A DNA stretch of 64,000 nucleotides from Escherichia coli (GTDB lineage: Bacteria; Pseudomonadota; Gammaproteobacteria; Enterobacterales; Enterobacteriaceae), in the NCBI RefSeq assembly GCF_044324875.1, contig NZ_CP172185.1; one strand, given 5' to 3'. The translations under genes and the position numbers were made by a program. Numbering within the stretch: the first letter of the stretch is position 1; each line of letters starts with the position of its first letter. The notes beneath the pieces were generated by a model. That model searched no databases and was not told the DNA's origin. It saw only the letters and a list, made by a program, of their open reading frames with translations. This document shows, one piece after another, positions 51,117-59,253 of this stretch.

Positions 51117-52682
51117 TCAGTGGTAGTAGCCCGGACCACGCAGGTTTTCATGCTCTGAAGCATATGCCGGATGTTGTTCGCCCTGGCGGGATAATGGAAG
51201 CTCCAGGTTCTCCCGATGGTGACGCAGCAGATTGTCGATAAAGCGTCTGTCAGGGGCGTTATAGTGCAGGGCAACGTAACAGGCCTTTTCCAGCCGTTCC
51301 GGGCCGTATTTTTTCTGAAGTGCCAGCAGCCCCAGAACTGCACGATAAGCCAGTTCCGGATGGGGTTTTGCCTTCAGCATGGATTCAACCACCCGGCCTG
51401 TGGACGGGCCCGTACGTTTTCCCTGCTCGATCAGGCGTTCCGGTGTCCATGTCCCGTGCTGCCGGTGGCGCTCTGGCATGTGAAGCGGATTGGTTGTGTG
51501 TTTATATTCATGTGTGCTGCGCGGATGTTGCGCCACACACTGCCCCTTGTGCCAGAGCTGTACCACCGACTGCCCCGCCTTCAGTGACAGACGCTGACCG
51601 ACCAGTTCGTGTGGAACGGAGTACCAGTGACGGGCATATTCAACGTGGTAGTCAGGGCCAACCTTCACAGCTTTGTATTCCGTGTATTCATAAGGTGCCA
51701 GAGGCAGCGGAGAGAGTGCTGGCGCATCCAGTATGCGGAAGCGTTCTGCACGGGTTTGATTGCCGTACCCCTTCATTGGCCGGTTATTCATGTCTGTCAG
51801 TAACTCCCTAAGGCGCGCATTCAGCGCCCTGAGCGTGTGGAAGGTTTCATTACGGATGCGGGCAAGAAGCCATCGTTCAACGATGAGGACGCCGTTTTCT
51901 GCTTTTGGTTTATCTTTAGGTTTGCGTGGTCGGGCCGGGATGATAACCGTGCCATAGTGCTCAGCCAGTGCCTGATAACTGTCGTTGATGACAGGCTCAT
52001 ATCGATCGGCCTTTTTCACTGCGCTTCTGAGGTTATCGGGGATGAGCAGCTTCGGTACGCCGCCCAGGAAGGTCAGGCAACGGCTGTGGGCATTTAACCA
52101 TGACATCATGTCCTGACCTTCGCACGCTTCAACGTAGGTATAGTTGGACGCCCCCATTACGGCCACGAAGATTGCCACGCGGCGTATCTCACCGGTGTCC
52201 GGATTAATAACAGGAACCGTAGGACCACAGAAGTCGATAAAAAGCTTTTCGCCGGCACGATGCTCCTGGCGCATGGAGAGACGTCGCGTTTTTTTCCACT
52301 CCCGGTAGCAACGGCAGAAGTGCGAGTATCCCATCGCTTTGTTACCCGCCTGTGCCTTGTATTCCATCCACAACAGTTGCCGCGTCACACCTGGTTTTCT
52401 CATTTCCGTATCGAAGTACAACATGTCAGGCATTACAAGCTCTGATGCAAAGGTGTCTTTGGGCGGAAAAATGAGTTTCTCCAGCGTGTCATGGGATATA
52501 TCAGCAGGTAATGGCCATGACAGAGAAGAGGCTTTGAAGCGGGCAAGAACCTCAAAAACGGTTGAGGCGCTGATGTGTAACGTCAGTCCGATACAACGGT
52601 TAGTCAGCTTCTTGTCGAACTTGAGCTGAAGGATCTTAAAACAGGTTTCCATAGTGCTCCTGGATTTTCTCTTTCTGGACAT
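51117..52682 (-). CDS. istA: IS21-family transposase IstA
   Basis: N-terminal HTH then DDE integrase core; likely ATG start at about 52682 (MSRKRK..., with GGAGA RBS) or 52652 (METCFK...); the track start at 52763 is a TTG. Confidence 0.8.
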   Translation of the reverse strand: MSRKRKSRSTMETCFKILQLKFDKKLTNRCIGLTLHISASTVFEVLARFKASSLSWPLPADISHDTLEKLIFPPKDTFASELVMPDMLYFDTEMRKPGVTRQLLWMEYKAQAGNKAMGYSHFCRCYREWKKTRRLSMRQEHRAGEKLFIDFCGPTVPVINPDTGEIRRVAIFVAVMGASNYTYVEACEGQDMMSWLNAHSRCLTFLGGVPKLLIPDNLRSAVKKADRYEPVINDSYQALAEHYGTVIIPARPRKPKDKPKAENGVLIVERWLLARIRNETFHTLRALNARLRELLTDMNNRPMKGYGNQTRAERFRILDAPALSPLPLAPYEYTEYKAVKVGPDYHVEYARHWYSVPHELVGQRLSLKAGQSVVQLWHKGQCVAQHPRSTHEYKHTTNPLHMPERHRQHGTWTPERLIEQGKRTGPSTGRVVESMLKAKPHPELAYRAVLGLLALQKKYGPERLEKACYVALHYNAPDRRFIDNLLRHHRENLELPLSRQGEQHPAYASEHENLRGPGYYH

Positions 52683-53233
52683 TGACGTCTCCACTGGTTT
52701 AAACACGGCAATGGAGACTGTGGTGAAAAGAGTTAATTCCCGGAGTGACTGGCAGGATGCCAATCAATGATCGGAAGCATGCCAAATCGTGATCGATTGT
52801 GATGCCAAACTGTGATCGGAGATGGATGCCAAATCATGATCGATTCGAATGCCAAACTGCGATCGATTCAGATGCCATTTTGCATCTTACTGGTGTGAAA
52901 TTTGACCTATTATATCTTCTGCCGCCCCCTCTGGCTGTATCAAATAAACCCGCAGCAGTCGCCGCGTATTACGGACGGACGCACCGTTCCCATGCTCACT
53001 CGTCACATTCCCCGTATCAGTTTCTCTTACCGTAAGAACGGCTCTGGCTGGCGATAAAACTAACCCGGTCGGGCATTCCCACAGTCTTTAGAGAAAATGT
53101 AATTTACCCCCTGAAACGCGGGCTGTTCCCCCGTCACCTGCGCGCGAAAAACTCACCGTTTTTTGTGCACGCACGAAATCGCCCTCCGGGCGCGCCAGTA
53201 CTGGGCCGGATGGGCAAAAAGTTACTCTAAAAA

Positions 53234-53263
53234 ATTGTGCAAATTTGTGCACTTTTGTGCAGA
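53234..53263. repeat. Three tandem 10-bp repeats with TTGTGCA core
   Basis: attgtgcaaa-tttgtgcact-tttgtgcaga, exact 10-bp periodicity; a fourth TTGTGCAC lies about 70 bp upstream. Confidence 0.5.
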
Positions 53264-53487
53264 TGGACAATAGCGTCAAAAAGAGTGCTTTTGAGAGATT
53301 TTTTATGGCAACTGCGCCGCGTGTATTACGTTTTTTACCATCCCCGCCGCGCATGTACATACTTCATTTTTCTGCCAGACAACAGGGCAACTCCCCGTGA
53401 CTGACAGCCCCAAAAAATCAATGATTGATGTTGCATTTTTGTTAAAGGTTAGACCAGTTGTTTTGGGGCTCTGCCTCATAATCCGGT

Positions 53488-53804
53488 GGGGGGTGCGCAA
53501 ACCGGTTACAACGGTTACAACACTCAAAAACACCACTTAACAGCATGATTTTAATGGATATTGTTTGTAACCGCTTTGCGGTTACACTGCGGTTACAACG
53601 GTTACAGGTTTCAAAAAGTACTTTATTATCAATCAATTAAAAACTTAACCTGTAACCGCCTGTAACCTAACAAAACGGTTACATGTAACCGCGTTGTAAC
53701 CGCTTTTGTAACTCATCGGACCAGTTATAATATATTGATATATAATACAAAAATAAGTAATTTTAAATTTGTAACCGTTGTAACCGCTTTGCGCACCCCC
53801 CCCC
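53488..53804. repeat. Iteron cluster (about 12 GGTTACA/TGTAACC heptamers) bounded by about 33-bp inverted repeats, with AT-rich core; candidate replication origin (ori/crr-like)
   Basis: Left arm ggggggtgcgcaaaccggttacaacggttacaac and right arm gttgtaaccgttgtaaccgctttgcgcaccccccccc are reverse complements; AT-rich segment about 53726-53770; G6 and C9 homopolymer tracts at the ends. Confidence 0.6.
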
Positions 53805-54052
53805 AAACTTTAGCGCGACCCTTTAAAATGTTAATTAAACTCACTTACTCTGTATCTCTCTAGTTAACTCTCTGTTATTGAAATGTATCTCTCCACTGTT
53901 TCACTCTTTCTGATAATCAGGGGAAGCAAAAAATTGATGGCGGCACTACTGCAATATGGCCACCATTGCATTGCTGTTACCGTTGGTTCTGGCCAACAAA
54001 AAAGGTCAGCGGGAAACTGACCTCTTTTGCTGTGAATGCGGCGTTCTGCGGG

Positions 54053-55057
54053 TTACTCTGCTGGCTCTTTTTCTTCGGTGATCACTATGTTGGCTACCGG
54101 GTTAAATCTCATGGCATCTGCCAGATAATCCGGTGCAAAATGTGCGTATGCCATAGTCTGCTGAATTGTCGCATGCCCAAGGATTTTTTGTAGCGCAAGA
54201 ATGTTGCCACCGTTCATCACAAAGTGACTGGCGAATGTATGCCGCAATACATGCGCAGCCTGCCCCCTCGGTAAATCGGGTTTTATTTTTTTTAATGCCC
54301 GGCAAAACTCTCTGTACTTCACATCAAACAGTCGCCCGGTTTCTTTTGTTTTTACGGCATCGCATATTTCCTGCGACACAGGCACCGTTCTTTTTCTACC
54401 GTTTTTGGTTTCCAGAAACGTTATTCTGTTATGAACTATTTGCTCTCCATGCAATCTGCTGGCCTCACTCCAGCGGGCTCCGGTACAAAGACACAAGAGC
54501 GCAACCCTTCGTTGATCTCCATTCAGCCCGTCAAGCAACAATGTGACCTCGTTTTTTGATAAAAAGGCCATTTCCCGCTGCTTTACATAAAGAACAGGAA
54601 TACCACGAACCGGATGCTCTGCATCCCACAAACCGATCTTTTTCAGGGCTGTAAACATCCCCGATAATCTGTTCATGTATCTGTTTGCTGAGGACGGCTT
54701 TAATCCTTCCGCAATTTTCTGCGATCGCCATGCAATGATTTTTAATTTGTTGAGTTCTGCCGCAAACATGTCAGCTCCAAGCTCATTAATAATTTTGCCA
54801 AGTTGCTGTTTATCCGTGTTTGCCTTTCGCCTGTGCTGACCGTGATAGACCCACCACAATTCCAGTAAATCGCTAAGCGTTCTCCGGTCGCGATAGCCCT
54901 GTATAAACTCGCGCTTTTCGGCGTTCGCTATGATGTACCGTTCAGTTGCTGTAGCTATCGATTTTTTGTCAAATATTCTTCTGATGCGCTTCCCTTTACG
55001 TCCGCATGGCCTGATATCGAGCAGCCACCGCCCATCATGCATCTTTCTGATCGGCAT
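54053..55057 (-). CDS. Tyrosine recombinase, P2/186-type integrase family
   Basis: From MPIRKMHDGRWLLDIRPCGRKGKRIRR; C-terminus GQAAHVLRHTFASHFVMNGGNILALQKILGHATIQQTMAYAHFAPDYLADAMRFNP closely resembles the recalled phage 186 integrase; start lies 2-3 nt after the primase stop. Confidence 0.8.
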   Translation of the reverse strand: MPIRKMHDGRWLLDIRPCGRKGKRIRRIFDKKSIATATERYIIANAEKREFIQGYRDRRTLSDLLELWWVYHGQHRRKANTDKQQLGKIINELGADMFAAELNKLKIIAWRSQKIAEGLKPSSANRYMNRLSGMFTALKKIGLWDAEHPVRGIPVLYVKQREMAFLSKNEVTLLLDGLNGDQRRVALLCLCTGARWSEASRLHGEQIVHNRITFLETKNGRKRTVPVSQEICDAVKTKETGRLFDVKYREFCRALKKIKPDLPRGQAAHVLRHTFASHFVMNGGNILALQKILGHATIQQTMAYAHFAPDYLADAMRFNPVANIVITEEKEPAE

Positions 55058-55059
55058 GT

Positions 55060-57753
55060 TTAACTCCCCTCCTTGTAACTGAATATCCGGCATTTCAGTA
55101 CTTCCGGCTCTCTGGCCTCGGCGACCCCTCTTCCGGCGTTTGCCTGTCTGGAGACCTCACTACGAATGGTTTTGCGGCCTGTCAAAGGTCGGGAACGTCC
55201 GGCTGCGAGCAACTCAATCATTTCGCGGTCAGTTCGGATCTCCACGCGGTGAATAGCGGCAGCCTGTGCCAGTTGCGGAATACTGATAGCAATCCCCTCG
55301 CGGCATCCCTTGCCGTAGTGGTTTACACCGTATTTTGTTATGCCGTCCAGATAGTCGAACGCCTCCCAGAACGCTATTACTTCCGGCAAGTCATCCGTTA
55401 CCGCTTTAACTTGTTCCGCTGCCATTCGTTCCAGTTCCTGGCATGTGGCATTAAGCCATTCATCCGGGATATCAATAACGCATTTCAGCGCCCTGACCAG
55501 CGCAATAAGTTGCGCGTGATTTTTGGCAATACGGGGATGGAGAATATTTTCGCAACCGCAAAGGCGGGTCGTTTCAGGCTCTGAGAGCGCCAGAAACATT
55601 TCCATAATTGCCCGTTCACGGCTGACTGCCCGATGAATAAACCCTGACACCTTCTCAACGGGGTAGAGTTCCAGTCGTCTCGCCGCCAGGCGGGTATCAG
55701 GTGAATGGCGTTTTTTATCGGTGTATATGCGTATCAGGCGCTCAATAATTGCAAGTGAGGCGTTTACCCTCGCATTCTGTGCAATCACGATAGCGCCCTT
55801 AAAATCCGGGTCATAGGTGTTGTTATTGTTGGTCTTAACGCCACGAACGCCGATACCGCCGCCGTTATAGAGGCTTTTCAGGTTATCGAAGTCAAACGCA
55901 CCTCTTTTTTGCGCATTGCCTCCCCGGTCTGCTTCAATCAGAACAACAGGTAATCCGGCGACCTGTCCAAAGGTGCGCTTCCAGCCCGCCTCTGATCCTT
56001 TGGTTGGATCAACGCCTTCATAGTTGTCACGACCGCACAACCGCCAGCAAAAATCAATCAATGTTGATTTACCCGTTCCGGGCTCCCCGGTGACTTCAAG
56101 GAAGGGGAAGGATTCTTCTTTATCCCGGATTTGTTCGCTGAACAGGGAGCCCAACCAGAAAGCCAGGGTAATAATTCCTTTTTCACCAAAAGCCAGCCAG
56201 AGATCTTCCACCCAGGACTCTGTAAACTCATCCGGTTTTTTGTAGTTAATCTGTAATGTGGGTTTTTCGCTTAATGGTTTTGCGTTTATGCCATCAATTT
56301 CAAAATAATCTTCGTCATTGATTTCATAAGTTTTTCCCTTGTAAACAGCAATATCATTAAACAGCCATGCCCCAATCGCCTTGTTGTATCCGATAAAATC
56401 CTGACCAATAACCTCTTTTATTGCGGGAAGGTCATTTTTTATTAATGCGTCAAGCTGCGTAGTCGTTCCGGTATAAATACCGCCTTTTGCCACATGCAAC
56501 AGGCGTTTTTTAAATTCAGATGCGGATGTCAATTGTCCTGATGTAAAGGTGTTTTTCACCGTAGCACCATCCGGGAACGTAACACGGAAGTAATACCATG
56601 CTTCATCCGTGTCATTATTTCGAATGTAATAAAGCGACGCTGGGTTACAGTTTGCGATTTCTTTTACTGCGCCAGATTCCTTAAGTGCAATTTTGCGCGC
56701 TTCATCCTCATCAACACTTCTCTCATTCTTGGCACGCTCTACAGCTTTCATATAGCGCTCAATGTCCAGTTTGAACCAGAAAACACGGTTATCAAAAGTA
56801 AAATGAAATTCCTTCCGCTCACGAAAGGAAAATATTATTAGCGCCTTATCTCTCGGAGATTTCGCCAGCAATAAATCACCGTAATGACGGTATCTTTTCA
56901 CATCATGGCCACGCAGCTTTCCGGCGATGTGTAAATCATTCCAGTCGCGTTTATTGTTGTTTTTACCTGGCAACGCCGCTGCCGTTCTCCAGCCGTCTTC
57001 GGCGCTGCGTTCTGCATGTTTTTTCGCGTAACGCTCACCCGCACGCCCGTTATCCAGCGCCCACACAATAACCGGACGGGGATTATCCCCGCACAGCTTC
57101 GCCAGCTCTTCCAGCGCCTTATCAGGGTAGTTCACGGCAGACATGACAGAAACGGCCGCAATGCCATTCTGGTTAAGGCTGATGGCATCAAAGATGCCCT
57201 CACAAATCCAGATTTCTTTGGCCTTGCTTAAATCTGCTCCCGGATAAGCCCACCACAACCCCTTGTAGCTGCCGGAAAAATTCGCCTTGCGCGCGAAGCG
57301 TCCCGGTCGGTCTATGATGCGCTCCCACCACACGCCGTCAGCCAGCGTAAAACGCACAGTAGCGGCCTGTTCGCCGTTTTCCTTGTCCTGGTATCGCTCC
57401 TGAGTAAATGCGCCCTTCAGTGGCCCCACAGCAATATTGCGCGCCTCCTGAAGATAAGCTGCCACCGCTGCATATGGCTCGTCTTTCGTGCTGATATAAC
57501 GATCTGACCATGATGAAAACACATCCGGGTAAAGTTCTTTGGTCAGCAGGTCTGTACCGCATTTATTTTCGCGCCCACAGTGTACGATGTACGGCCTTTC
57601 AAGGCTGGTAAACAACTCTTTCTTTCCACATTGCGGACAAACACCATACCGGAGGTAGTTATTTTCTTCTTTGAAGTTGTAATCACGGATAAGACGGTTA
57701 ATAATCTCTTTTCTGATGTCAGATTTCATATATAAAACTCCACCCCACTGCAC
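55060..57753 (-). CDS. Primase-helicase (P4 alpha-like replication protein)
   Basis: 897-aa ORF with N-terminal zinc finger (CPQCGKK...HCGRENKCG), TOPRIM-like WICEGIFDAISL and P-loop VTGEPGTGKST. Confidence 0.75.
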   Translation of the reverse strand: MQWGGVLYMKSDIRKEIINRLIRDYNFKEENNYLRYGVCPQCGKKELFTSLERPYIVHCGRENKCGTDLLTKELYPDVFSSWSDRYISTKDEPYAAVAAYLQEARNIAVGPLKGAFTQERYQDKENGEQAATVRFTLADGVWWERIIDRPGRFARKANFSGSYKGLWWAYPGADLSKAKEIWICEGIFDAISLNQNGIAAVSVMSAVNYPDKALEELAKLCGDNPRPVIVWALDNGRAGERYAKKHAERSAEDGWRTAAALPGKNNNKRDWNDLHIAGKLRGHDVKRYRHYGDLLLAKSPRDKALIIFSFRERKEFHFTFDNRVFWFKLDIERYMKAVERAKNERSVDEDEARKIALKESGAVKEIANCNPASLYYIRNNDTDEAWYYFRVTFPDGATVKNTFTSGQLTSASEFKKRLLHVAKGGIYTGTTTQLDALIKNDLPAIKEVIGQDFIGYNKAIGAWLFNDIAVYKGKTYEINDEDYFEIDGINAKPLSEKPTLQINYKKPDEFTESWVEDLWLAFGEKGIITLAFWLGSLFSEQIRDKEESFPFLEVTGEPGTGKSTLIDFCWRLCGRDNYEGVDPTKGSEAGWKRTFGQVAGLPVVLIEADRGGNAQKRGAFDFDNLKSLYNGGGIGVRGVKTNNNNTYDPDFKGAIVIAQNARVNASLAIIERLIRIYTDKKRHSPDTRLAARRLELYPVEKVSGFIHRAVSRERAIMEMFLALSEPETTRLCGCENILHPRIAKNHAQLIALVRALKCVIDIPDEWLNATCQELERMAAEQVKAVTDDLPEVIAFWEAFDYLDGITKYGVNHYGKGCREGIAISIPQLAQAAAIHRVEIRTDREMIELLAAGRSRPLTGRKTIRSEVSRQANAGRGVAEAREPEVLKCRIFSYKEGS

Positions 57754-58811: not shown

Positions 58812-59253
58812 TGGCAGCGGTAACGGTATGAAGGCGGATATTTTTACCGTGGCACTGCATAAAGCGCCAGATAAAATCAGGGCGTGTTGATATAGCCATT
58901 TTGGCGGCTCCTTCTACTGATTTACGGAGTCTCGCCAGCACGCTGCTAAACATGGTGGCGGGACGTAACAGGGTTAGCAGACTGGCGTAGAAGAAACCAG
59001 CGAGCGCAAAGGCTCCCCCATTACGCCCCGCCATAATACGGGGTAGGGTGGAATTACGGGCACAAAAAAACCGCATTACGGAAATATAGCGGCTACCCGC
59101 TTCTACTATCAGGCTGCTAAACCCGGCACCCGCTTTATGAGGTGCGGGCAAACGATACGCCATGACAAAAAAGCGAGTCAAGCAATATTGCAAATTATTT
59201 TTGCGCGATTGCGCTGAGTGATTGATTTTTAAGAGTAAAAAAGTCATAATCAT
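58726..59253 (-). CDS. Hypothetical protein (up to 175 aa)
   Basis: Longest ORF in the alpA-proximal part of the operon; start uncertain; overlaps 58551..58811 in another frame (possible frameshift or overlapping genes). Confidence 0.3.
   Translation of the reverse strand: MIMTFLLLKINHSAQSRKNNLQYCLTRFFVMAYRLPAPHKAGAGFSSLIVEAGSRYISVMRFFCARNSTLPRIMAGRNGGAFALAGFFYASLLTLLRPATMFSSVLARLRKSVEGAAKMAISTRPDFIWRFMQCHGKNIRLHTVTAASEREARALLPASRLVFVARIRVREACHV

What the first reader, a model, noticed from the sequence alone, without database searches (positions are those of the whole stretch)
53488..53804. Dense GGTTACA iteron cluster bounded by about 33-bp inverted repeats and homopolymer tracts
About twelve copies of GGTTACA/TGTAACC in both orientations within 320 bp, an AT-rich core, and flanking inverted repeats ending in G6 and C9 runs. 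The architecture resembles a replication origin (P4 ori/crr uses TGTTCACC iterons bound by the alpha C-terminal domain); here it sits just downstream of the primase-integrase operon. The C9 tract is also a potential slipped-strand site.
Basis: seen in the sequence. Interest (0 to 1): 0.6.

Follow-up and report, generated by a model that had tools for sequence, protein, structure and literature searches.

The report
Satellite phage replication origin, iteron type
The repeat cluster is real and is most likely the replication origin used by the primase-helicase of a P4-like satellite prophage; the same 13-site layout is found in relatives from E. coli to Pseudomonas phage phiCTX, so it is a useful but unsurprising kind of element.

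Summary
There are 13 exact GGTTACA/TGTAACC copies in 53504-53785 and only 3 in the other 63.7 kb. A 36-nt inverted repeat (94% complementary) bounds the cluster and ends in G6 and C9 runs. Three AT-rich spacers and two IHF-consensus sites lie inside.

The window is E. coli chromosome. The cluster lies in a P4-like satellite prophage at tRNA-Arg, 249 bp past the primase-integrase operon.

About 30 distinct relatives keep the same roughly 310-bp module, with the site order ++ |64| +++-+ |39-51| ---+ |52| --. They come from E. coli, Providencia, Xenorhabdus, Arsenophonus, Pectobacterium, Comamonas, Escherichia phage ESSI2_ev239 and Pseudomonas phage phiCTX. The repeat word itself changes between loci: GGTTACA, CGTTACA, CCTTACA, GTCACA, GGTAAT.

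The one partner found wherever the DNA held allows a check is the ~890-aa zinc-finger/Toprim/SF3-helicase protein, whose C-terminus models as a winged helix. The tyrosine integrase is a swapped cassette, often absent or 5 kb away. The module stays intact inside integrated prophages, never inverts, and can lie 4 kb from cos.

Best reading (about 0.7): an iteron origin bound by the primase-helicase, working like P4 ori/crr or the SaPI ori. No binding or origin activity has been shown. I rate it a new member of a known kind.

The parts
53485..53804 (-). Whole repeat module, about 320 bp. Read in the direction of the primase gene (- strand), the sites run ++ |63| +++-++ |51| ---+ |53| --.
   Evidence: an nhmmer profile of the module finds relatives in about 36 loci
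53769..53804 (.). Primase-proximal arm of the inverted repeat: two repeats (53770, 53779), the box CTTTGCGCA (53787-53795), and the C9 run (53796-53804; G9 on the primase strand).
   Evidence: The run is 7-10 long among E. coli isolates.
53485..53520 (.). Distal arm of the inverted repeat: G6 run (53488-53493), the box TGCGCAAAC (53494-53502), and two repeats (53504, 53513).
   Evidence: Lineage-specific changes in the box are mirrored in both arms.
53566..53606 (.). Inner repeat group: TGTAACC at 53566, GGTTACA at 53580, 53591 and 53600.
   Evidence: these columns are conserved
53651..53713 (.). Inner repeat group: TGTAACC at 53651 and 53661; the abutting palindrome GGTTACATGTAACC at 53677-53690; TGTAACC at 53695; degenerate TGTAACT at 53707.
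53712..53769 (.). The most AT-rich spacer (81% AT, with TATAATATATTGATATATAATA). Candidate DNA-unwinding element. Contains the IHF-consensus site TATCAATATATTA at 53728-53740 (- strand).
   Evidence: position conserved in all relatives
53627..53639 (+). Central IHF-consensus site TATCAATCAATTA (WATCAANNNNTTR), inside the 77% AT spacer 53607-53650.
   Evidence: 2 of the 6 consensus matches in the whole 64-kb window fall in the module. The TTGAT core is conserved. The phiCTX counterpart carries two annotated IHF sites.
55060..57753 (-). 897-aa ORF (889 aa as annotated in relatives). Domains: zinc finger (about aa 39-65), Toprim (aa 180-276), SF3-type helicase with Walker A GEPGTGKS (aa 556-563), and a C-terminal domain. 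This is the proposed initiator that binds the repeats.
   Evidence: (phrog_1139, 2e-297)
55063..55389 (-). Coding region for the last 109 residues of the primase-helicase. Predicted winged-helix domain and proposed repeat reader.
54053..55093 (-). P2/186-type tyrosine integrase (334-346 aa), sitting as a cassette between the primase gene and the module. Neighbour only; probably not part of the origin.
54003..54023 (.). Hairpin terminator of the primase-integrase operon. T-runs lie on both sides.
   Evidence: sequence

Best explanation
The module is the vegetative replication origin, or an origin-plus-crr-like cis site, of a P4-like satellite prophage.

Proposed mechanism (all steps inferred):
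- The element's own primase-helicase reads the 13-14 GGTTACA sites with its C-terminal winged-helix domain.
- Sites about one helical turn apart, in two opposed sets, place protomers on both halves of a roughly dyad-symmetric, 320-bp stretch.
- IHF bends the two AT-rich spacers.
- The SF3 helicase rings assemble and open the 81% AT tract next to the primase-proximal arm.
- The Toprim domain primes, and the host polymerase takes over, as in P4 theta replication.

Shown here: the sequence architecture; its conservation; concerted change of the repeat word; linkage to the primase gene and independence from the integrase; the predicted fold of the C-terminal domain.

Not shown: binding, melting, helicase loading and origin activity.
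For: 1. Linkage to the primase.
- In 80 loci fetched by primase homology, the profile finds the module in L005-L013, L018, L019, L028 and L084. It is always downstream of the primase gene and on the same strand.
- A scan of viral contigs for the repeat pattern, blind to proteins, gave 13 module loci on 12 contigs. Ten contigs have the primase directly upstream in the same orientation. The other two give no test: one contig ends 0.4 kb past the module and one has only 1.2 kb of stored flank with no primase in it.

2. Independence from the integrase.
- The module occurs with no integrase homologue in the fetched flanks in L008, L009, L013, L019 and L084.
- The integrase lies 5 kb away on the other side of the primase in L010, L011, L018 and L028.
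- Integrase homologues occur without the module in L014-L017, L020 and L062.
- Between the window and L002 the primase gene is 71-99% identical, apart from its misaligned first 100 nt. The integrase gene is only 43-64% identical, and the module region returns to 68-90%.
- In L004 the order is primase-module-integrase.

3. Conserved layout with a changing word.
- The order ++ |64| +++-+ |39-51| ---+ |52| -- is kept in E. coli, Providencia, Pectobacterium and phiCTX. Arsenophonus and ESSI2_ev239 keep it with small departures.
- The word changes: GGTTACA, CGTTACA, CCTTACA, GTCACA, GGTAAT.
- Repeat columns are 0.78 conserved against 0.49 elsewhere over 22 distinct modules.
- The two arms of one locus resemble each other more than the same arm resembles its counterpart in other loci: box 0.82 against 0.68.

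4. Origin-like features.
- Spacing of 9-11 bp, three AT-rich tracts and two IHF-consensus sites.
- The phiCTX counterpart ('region 3, R3 repeats') has two annotated IHF sites.

5. The protein.
- It has a zinc finger, a Toprim domain and an SF3 Walker A motif, the same domain order as P4 alpha.
- It is the 'DNA primase' of P2-like phages that lack the gene A initiator.
- Its C-terminal 109 aa model as a winged helix whose best matches include the SaPI Rep and oriT- or ori-binding winged helices.
- The C-terminus is the most variable part of the protein.

6. Precedent. P4 crr lies directly downstream of alpha. Each crr repeat begins T8-CGAAAGAAC followed by two repeats 9 bp apart, the same end grammar as [run]-TTCGGAAA-repeat-repeat here.
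Against: - There is no experimental evidence of binding or origin activity for any member.
- Most of the fetched primase loci (61 of 80) show no module within 7 kb. The phiCTX and ESSI2 arrangements explain this plausibly, because there the module lies beyond attP and so at the far end of a prophage, but I did not check it locus by locus.
- In ESSI2_ev239 and phiCTX the module is 4-5 kb from the primase gene and close to attP and cos, so adjacency is not universal.
- I could not show covariation between repeat word and specific residues.
- No DnaA box is present. This is neutral for a self-contained initiator.
Confidence: 0.72

Rival explanations
1. It is a cis-acting accessory replication site like P4 crr. 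The primase-helicase binds it and replication needs it, but initiation happens at a different, unrecognised site.
For: The module sits downstream of the primase gene, as crr does in P4, and shares the end grammar of the crr repeats.
Against: No second cluster of the repeat exists in the satellite or anywhere in the window. The module has its own 81% AT tract and IHF-consensus sites.
Confidence: 0.1
2. It is the attP or arm-site array of the adjacent P2/186-type integrase, which would use it to integrate or excise the element.
For: It abuts the integrase gene in the window and in L004. IHF sites and repeats in both orientations are also typical of attP. In phiCTX the counterpart lies next to attP.
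Against: - The module is intact and internal in integrated prophages whose integrase of this family sits at the prophage end (L011, L028), and at the end opposite the integrase in L215.
- It occurs without any such integrase (L008, L013, L084), and integrases occur without it.
- Integrase alleles only 51-54% identical sit beside modules with the same repeat core.
- In phiCTX the attP core and its R1/R2 repeats are annotated separately from the R3 region.
- A relative's integrase gene has TGTGGAC-type repeats beside it instead (L062).
Confidence: 0.05
3. It is an invertible switch or a multimer-resolution site. The neighbouring tyrosine recombinase would act on the 36-bp inverted repeats.
For: Inverted repeats flanking about 250 bp beside a recombinase gene is the classic inverton layout. 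The integrase catalytic residues look intact.
Against: - All E. coli hits listed in full match as one collinear piece: 40 of the 65 carrier genomes, and the 15 listed.
- Every module found by the profile has the same orientation relative to the primase.
- The module exists where no recombinase is nearby.
Confidence: 0.04
4. It is a packaging element, a cosB-like binding array for the helper's small terminase, or some other protein-binding array such as a partition centromere or copy-control site.
For: In phiCTX the counterpart lies between attP and cos. In the window a cos-like sequence lies about 350 bp away. P1 parS also has repeats around an IHF site (own knowledge).
Against: - In Providencia and Xenorhabdus prophages the cos-like sequence is 2.6-5.5 kb from the module; in L011, at 4 kb, a restriction-modification pair lies between them.
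- The satellites encode no terminase and no ParA/ParB.
- The repeat word differs between E. coli satellites (GGTTACA) and the E. coli P2-like phage ESSI2_ev239 (GTCACA). That would defeat packaging by this phage if it were the helper, which is not known.
Confidence: 0.07

Closest known systems
Bacteriophage P4 ori and crr (type I repeats TGTTCACC, bound by the C-terminal domain of the alpha primase-helicase)
   Same: - Both are satellites of P2-like phages.
- Both initiators have a zinc finger, Toprim domain, SF3 helicase and C-terminal DNA-binding domain.
- In both, a repeat cluster in both orientations lies directly downstream of the primase gene (crr), with AT-rich stretches.
- The end grammar matches: homopolymer run, TTCG(G)AAA box, two repeats 9 bp apart.
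   Different: - Protein similarity is only local: Toprim and Walker A, E 2e-4.
- The repeat word differs.
- There is one dyad-symmetric 320-bp module instead of ori plus crr 4.5 kb apart.
- P4 crr is two direct 120-bp repeats, not an inverted pair.
- Alpha binding to P4 repeats is experimental knowledge that I cite from memory.
Pseudomonas phage phiCTX 'region 3 containing R3 repeats' between attP and cos (annotation of NC_003278)
   Same: It has the same 13-site order and spacing: ++ |65| +++-+ |51| ---+ |54| --. The end grammar is ATTACC-AAA-ATTACC-TTTTCCCAA-GGGG. It has two IHF sites and the same orientation relative to a 41%-identical primase gene.
   Different: The repeat word is GGTAAT. 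It lies about 4.4 kb downstream of the primase, beyond int and attP. The nhmmer profile does not detect it. The record gives it no function, and I found none stated in the papers searched.
SaPI (Staphylococcus aureus pathogenicity island) ori downstream of the rep helicase gene
   Same: It is a satellite origin next to its initiator gene, with repeats flanking an AT-rich region. The initiator's C-terminal part sets specificity. SaPI Rep (8tch_B) is among the best structural matches to the C-terminal domain modelled here. SaPI biology is cited from my own knowledge.
   Different: The initiator family is unrelated at sequence level, the host is Gram-positive, the primase is a separate protein, and the repeat layout differs.
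Origins of eukaryotic viruses with SF3 helicase initiators (SV40 large T antigen site II, papillomavirus E1 binding sites)
   Same: This is a resemblance in how it may work only. Short recognition words sit in opposed sets around a dyad next to an AT-rich tract, which lets two helicase hexamers assemble head to head (own knowledge).
   Different: There is no homology of the DNA. The module is much larger, with 13 sites and IHF sites. Double-hexamer loading is pure inference here.

Membership tests
Iteron-type replication origin served by an element-encoded primase-helicase (the functional class of P4 ori/crr and the SaPI ori) | Many copies of one short word, in both orientations, about one helical turn apart | tested here: met
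   13 exact copies plus 1-2 degenerate ones; spacings mostly 9-11 bp
Iteron-type replication origin served by an element-encoded primase-helicase (the functional class of P4 ori/crr and the SaPI ori) | An AT-rich unwinding tract next to the repeats | tested here: met
   53712-53769 is 81% AT; GC is 0.20 at 53730-53789; position conserved
Iteron-type replication origin served by an element-encoded primase-helicase (the functional class of P4 ori/crr and the SaPI ori) | Genetic linkage to the initiator gene across diverged genomes, with the repeat word changing in concert | tested here: met
   In phiCTX and ESSI2_ev239 the module is in the same genome but 4-5 kb from the gene.
Iteron-type replication origin served by an element-encoded primase-helicase (the functional class of P4 ori/crr and the SaPI ori) | The initiator's DNA-binding domain binds the repeats | not testable with these tools
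   Only a predicted winged-helix fold. Needs EMSA or footprinting.
Iteron-type replication origin served by an element-encoded primase-helicase (the functional class of P4 ori/crr and the SaPI ori) | The fragment supports replication in cis when the initiator is supplied in trans | not testable with these tools
   Needs a plasmid replication assay.
P4 alpha / P4 ori-crr sequence family in the strict sense | The initiator is homologous to P4 alpha along its length | tested here: not met
   BLASTP gives only two short local matches, Walker A (E 2e-4) and Toprim (E 0.004). tblastn against the phage collection listed no P4 among the 25 rows shown of 41 records.
P4 alpha / P4 ori-crr sequence family in the strict sense | Type I repeat TGTTCACC, and a bipartite ori plus crr | tested here: not met
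   The word is GGTTACA and there is a single cluster.
attP of a heterobivalent tyrosine integrase | The site is split on integration, with its core inside it | tested here: not met
   The module is intact inside integrated elements and prophages (window, L001-L004, L011, L028, L215).
attP of a heterobivalent tyrosine integrase | Co-occurs and co-varies with its integrase | tested here: not met
Invertible DNA switch (inverton) | Inverted repeats flank a segment beside a recombinase gene | tested here: met
   (true for the window only)
Invertible DNA switch (inverton) | Both orientations are found among isolates | tested here: not met
   Single collinear matches in the listed E. coli genomes. 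Orientation relative to the primase is constant in every module the profile detects.
cos / terminase recognition region of P2-like phages | Contains or abuts the cohesive-end sequence | tested here: not met
   No P2/P4 cos within 3 mismatches in the window. The cos-like sequence is 2.6-5.5 kb from the module in L010, L011, L019 and L028.
phiCTX 'region 3 / R3 repeat' element | About 280-320 bp with 12-13 short repeats in the order ++ / +++-+ / ---+ / --, two IHF sites, and ends of the form box plus two repeats | tested here: met

The most novel reading that the evidence does not exclude
The module may be a fixed-geometry origin built for two SF3 helicase hexamers. Twelve to thirteen reading sites in two opposed sets of six, with IHF bends, would be a bacterial counterpart of the SV40 and papillomavirus origin logic. 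The ordered block primase, integrase, putative attP (inferred from phiCTX), origin, cos-like site in the satellite is syntenic with phiCTX. It would then be a portable replication, integration and packaging cassette exchanged between P2-like helpers and their satellites. The differing repeat words (GGTTACA in the satellites, GTCACA in the E. coli phage ESSI2_ev239) would keep satellite and helper replicons from cross-firing.
Probability: 0.25. Interest if true: 0.6.

Novelty: new member of a known kind. Interest (0 to 1): 0.42.

Why it matters
- It links the long-annotated but unexplained 'R3 repeats' of phiCTX to the phage's primase-helicase.
- It gives a compact, testable system of 13 sites plus a 109-residue winged helix for asking how a bacterial SF3 primase-helicase recognises and opens an origin.
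- It offers a cis marker for finding these replicons and predicting their incompatibility or cross-talk with helpers.
- A specialist would not find it surprising that a satellite has an iteron origin beside its replication gene.

Tried and rejected
- Second cluster (an ori separate from a crr): none in the window, even with one mismatch allowed.
- DNA-level relatives in the phage and plasmid collections: none. Relatives had to be reached through the primase and through a repeat pattern (where most of the 120 matched stretches were chance singles).
- Inversion: rejected. All listed E. coli matches are single and collinear.
- Mobile MITE-like element: rejected. There is one locus per genome; the second 'place' reported is most likely the self-complementary match, which I did not inspect.
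- cos: no P2/P4 cos within 3 mismatches. With 5 mismatches I found only a weak cos-like string outside the module.
- DnaA boxes: none.
- Known RNA families: none in the module.
- Sequence search of the PDB with the whole primase and with the C-terminal profile: nothing useful.
- Foldseek on the 208-residue model: nothing significant; the best hit was the Cch helicase at E 0.35.
- Covariation between the repeat word and the primase C-terminus: the C-terminus is the most divergent part. However, pairs sharing a word are not consistently closer there, so no specificity code could be read.
- Ogr/Delta-type TGT-N12-ACA dyads within the module: none, judged by inspecting the spacings.
- Literature searches for this origin, the GGTTACA word, phiCTX R3 repeats or an origin for this primase family found no description.

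Full report
**1. The observation**

- GGTTACA/TGTAACC occurs 16 times in the 64-kb window, against 5.9 +/- 2.3 expected; no shuffle reached 16. Thirteen copies lie in 53504-53785.
- With one mismatch allowed, 15 sites fall in 300 bp, against a background of 0.8. There is no second cluster.
- A 36-nt inverted repeat (94% complementary) forms the two ends, 53485-53520 and 53769-53804. It ends in a G6 run and a C9 run.
- Three AT-rich spacers (70%, 77%, 81% AT) separate the repeat groups.
- Two of the six IHF-consensus matches in the whole window fall inside the module, at 53627-53639 and 53728-53740. There is no DnaA box.

**2. Context**

- The window is E. coli chromosome. 62-65 of 5426 complete E. 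coli genomes carry the same region, always on the chromosome.
- The annotation of the best match (99.3% identical) and of three diverged relatives shows a P4-like satellite prophage, at tRNA-Arg beside yfdC in the window. Its genes are a P4-type integrase, an HTH regulator, an Icd-like gene, small ORFs, a 'toprim domain-containing protein', a 'phage integrase', the repeat module, ogr/delta, a 236-aa ORF, a P2-family capsid-like gene and MazEF.
- Rfam finds the P4-type immunity RNA (C4 family), isrK and the tRNA.
- The 897-aa ORF matches PHROG 1139 'DNA primase' end to end. It has a Toprim domain and a Walker A motif.
- The 346-aa ORF is a tyrosine recombinase with Int_N and Phage_integrase domains.
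- A hairpin terminator at 54003-54023 ends the two-gene operon.

**3. Which partner does the module follow?**

*Loci fetched by primase homology.* I collected 80 loci from species-representative genomes and searched them with a profile built from nine modules.
- The module is found in L005-L013, L018, L019, L028 and L084, the last being Comamonas with a 41%-identical primase.
- In every case it is downstream of the primase gene and on the same strand.

*Integrase.*
- There is no integrase homologue in the fetched flanks in L008, L009, L013, L019 and L084.
- In L010, L011, L018 and L028 the integrase is about 5 kb away, at the end of a P2-like prophage with the order int, C, cox, primase, module, cos, portal.
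- Integrase homologues occur without a module in L014-L017, L020 and L062.

*Protein-blind scan.* A scan of viral contigs for GGTTACAANGGTTACA gave 13 module loci on 12 contigs. Ten contigs have the primase directly upstream. The other two give no test: one contig ends just past the module and one has only 1.2 kb of stored flank with no primase in it.

*Within E. coli.*
- The integrase gene behaves as a swapped cassette. Between the window and L002 the primase gene is 71-99% identical (apart from its misaligned first 100 nt), the integrase gene 43-64%, and the module region 68-90%.
- The integrase proteins are 51-54% identical, with catalytic residues intact.
- In L004 the order is primase, module, integrase.

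**4. Conserved layout, changing word**

- Read in the primase direction, the sites run ++ |64| +++-+ |39-51| ---+ |52| --. This holds in the E. coli satellites, Providencia, Pectobacterium and Pseudomonas phage phiCTX. Arsenophonus and Escherichia phage ESSI2_ev239 keep it with small departures.
- The word differs between loci: GGTTACA, CGTTACA, CCTTACA, GTCACA, GGTAAT. Within a locus all copies change together.
- Over 22 distinct modules, repeat columns are 0.78 conserved against 0.49 for the rest. The sequences are related, so the p-value is not a true probability.
- Both ends carry a box, T(T/C)CGGAAA (TGCGCAAA in the window's lineage), followed by two repeats 9 bp apart. Lineage-specific changes in the box are mirrored in both arms.
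- The G and C runs are lineage features, not universal ones.

This is what a nucleoprotein complex with a co-evolving reader protein would look like. The only protein family common to all these elements that I could identify is the primase-helicase.

**5. The reader domain**

- The last roughly 200 residues are the most divergent part of the protein.
- The last 109 residues model with pLDDT 93.6 as a winged helix.
- The longer model matched the Cch and SaPI Rep helicases.
- This is consistent with repeat reading but does not prove it.

**6. Rivals**

- *attP.* Rejected as the main reading. The module is intact inside integrated elements. In an E. coli prophage of the ESSI2 type it sits at the end opposite the integrase, separated from the attachment site by an acyltransferase gene. 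In phiCTX the attP core and its R1/R2 repeats are annotated apart from the R3 region.
- *Inverton or resolution site.* No inversion appears in any listed genome or locus.
- *Packaging site.* In Providencia-type prophages the cos-like sequence is 2.6-5.5 kb from the module.
- *crr-like accessory role.* This remains possible.

**7. Comparison with known systems**

- P4 is the nearest worked example. Alpha has the same domain order, crr lies just downstream of alpha, and each crr repeat begins T8-CGAAAGAAC followed by two TGTTCAC repeats 9 bp apart.
- The proteins share only local similarity, the word differs, and there is one symmetric module rather than ori plus crr. It therefore works like P4 but is not a member of the P4 sequence family.
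- The closest counterpart, probably homologous, is phiCTX 'region 3 with R3 repeats'. Its record lists two IHF sites and no function.
- I found no paper in the held library that describes an origin for this primase family.

**8. The homopolymer tracts**

- The primase-proximal run is 7-10 long among E. coli isolates and the distal run 4-6.
- Most differences are substitutions at the first base. One isolate is a base shorter and one a base longer.
- Nothing suggests phase variation.

**9. Verdict**

This is a real, strongly conserved cis element. It is most likely the iteron origin of the satellite's primase-helicase (confidence about 0.7). I rate it a new member of a known kind, of moderate interest.

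Noticed in passing
window 50246-52884: An IS21-family element (istA 51117-52763, istB 50345-51343) is inserted with a 5-bp duplication (TCTTA) about 10 bp upstream of the ogr/delta start codon. It separates the satellite's late genes from their upstream region, so this copy is probably defective for late gene expression. The closest relative, L001, lacks the insertion.
   Followed up: yes
window 53120-53138: A cos-like string, GGGCTGTTCCCCCGTCACC followed by TGCGCGCG, lies about 350 bp from the module. Its reverse complement matches the P2/P4 cos at 13 of 19 positions. The order primase, int, module, cos-like is the same as primase, int, attP, R3, cos in phiCTX. No canonical P2/P4 cos exists in the window.
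   Followed up: partly
window 53235-53261: Three direct TTGTGCA repeats lie exactly 10 bp apart and overlap a small hairpin (53237-53252). They are conserved in L002 and L003. They recall the three 10-bp 'type 2' repeats beside the P4 ori. Alternatively they may belong to the Ogr/Delta-activated late promoter.
   Followed up: no
window 54053-55093; L002 9648-10649; L004 7970-8935: A second, internal P2/186-type integrase with intact catalytic residues is kept in all the E. coli relatives whose annotation I fetched (L001-L004 and the short-flank loci). The element integrates through a different terminal integrase: P4-type at tRNA-Arg in the window, another type and another site in L003. Alleles are only 51-54% identical between elements whose primases are 89% identical, and the gene lies on either side of the module. 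Its role is unknown; candidates are a second attachment site, multimer resolution, or a relic of a phiCTX-like block.
   Followed up: partly
window 53805-53935: A CT-rich stretch between the terminator and the module contains TGTATCTCTC twice, 33 bp apart (53851, 53884). A similar TATCTTCTCTC stretch precedes the module in L011, which has no adjacent integrase. It may therefore belong to the replication region.
   Followed up: partly
window 47618-49599: The satellite encodes its own P2-family major-capsid-like protein (470 aa, with an N-terminal extension of about 165 aa) preceded by a 236-aa protein with no family match. Classical P4 has sid and psu here instead.
   Followed up: no
window 53088-53360: The 90-aa 'hypothetical protein' annotated here in relatives overlaps the cos-like string and the TTGTGCA repeats and has no family match. 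It is probably not a gene.
   Followed up: partly
L019 5157-5290 and 5794-6016; L010 11206-11338: Extra partial copies of the module flank the complete one. In L019 the partial copy next to the primase has GGTTACA-type repeats while the complete module has CGTTACA-type repeats. This suggests origin replacement by recombination at the 3' end of the primase gene.
   Followed up: partly
L086 1-77 (end of record LR597637.1, Escherichia phage ESSI2_ev239): The public record ends in an Illumina Nextera adapter sequence (CAAGCAGAAGACGGCATACGAGAT...AGATGTGTATAAGAGACAG) after a poly-T run. This is contamination in the deposited genome.
   Followed up: no
window 58951-59145 and 46982-47574: A P4-type immunity RNA (Rfam C4, 73 bits) and isrK lie in the satellite's early region. 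A MazE/MazF toxin-antitoxin pair sits at the far end of the satellite.
   Followed up: no
window 34907-45730: Next to the satellite lies the phase-variable UpaE autotransporter gene (2637 aa) with the tyrosine invertases ipuA and ipuB. This is a genuine invertible-switch system in the same window and is unrelated to the repeat module.
   Followed up: no
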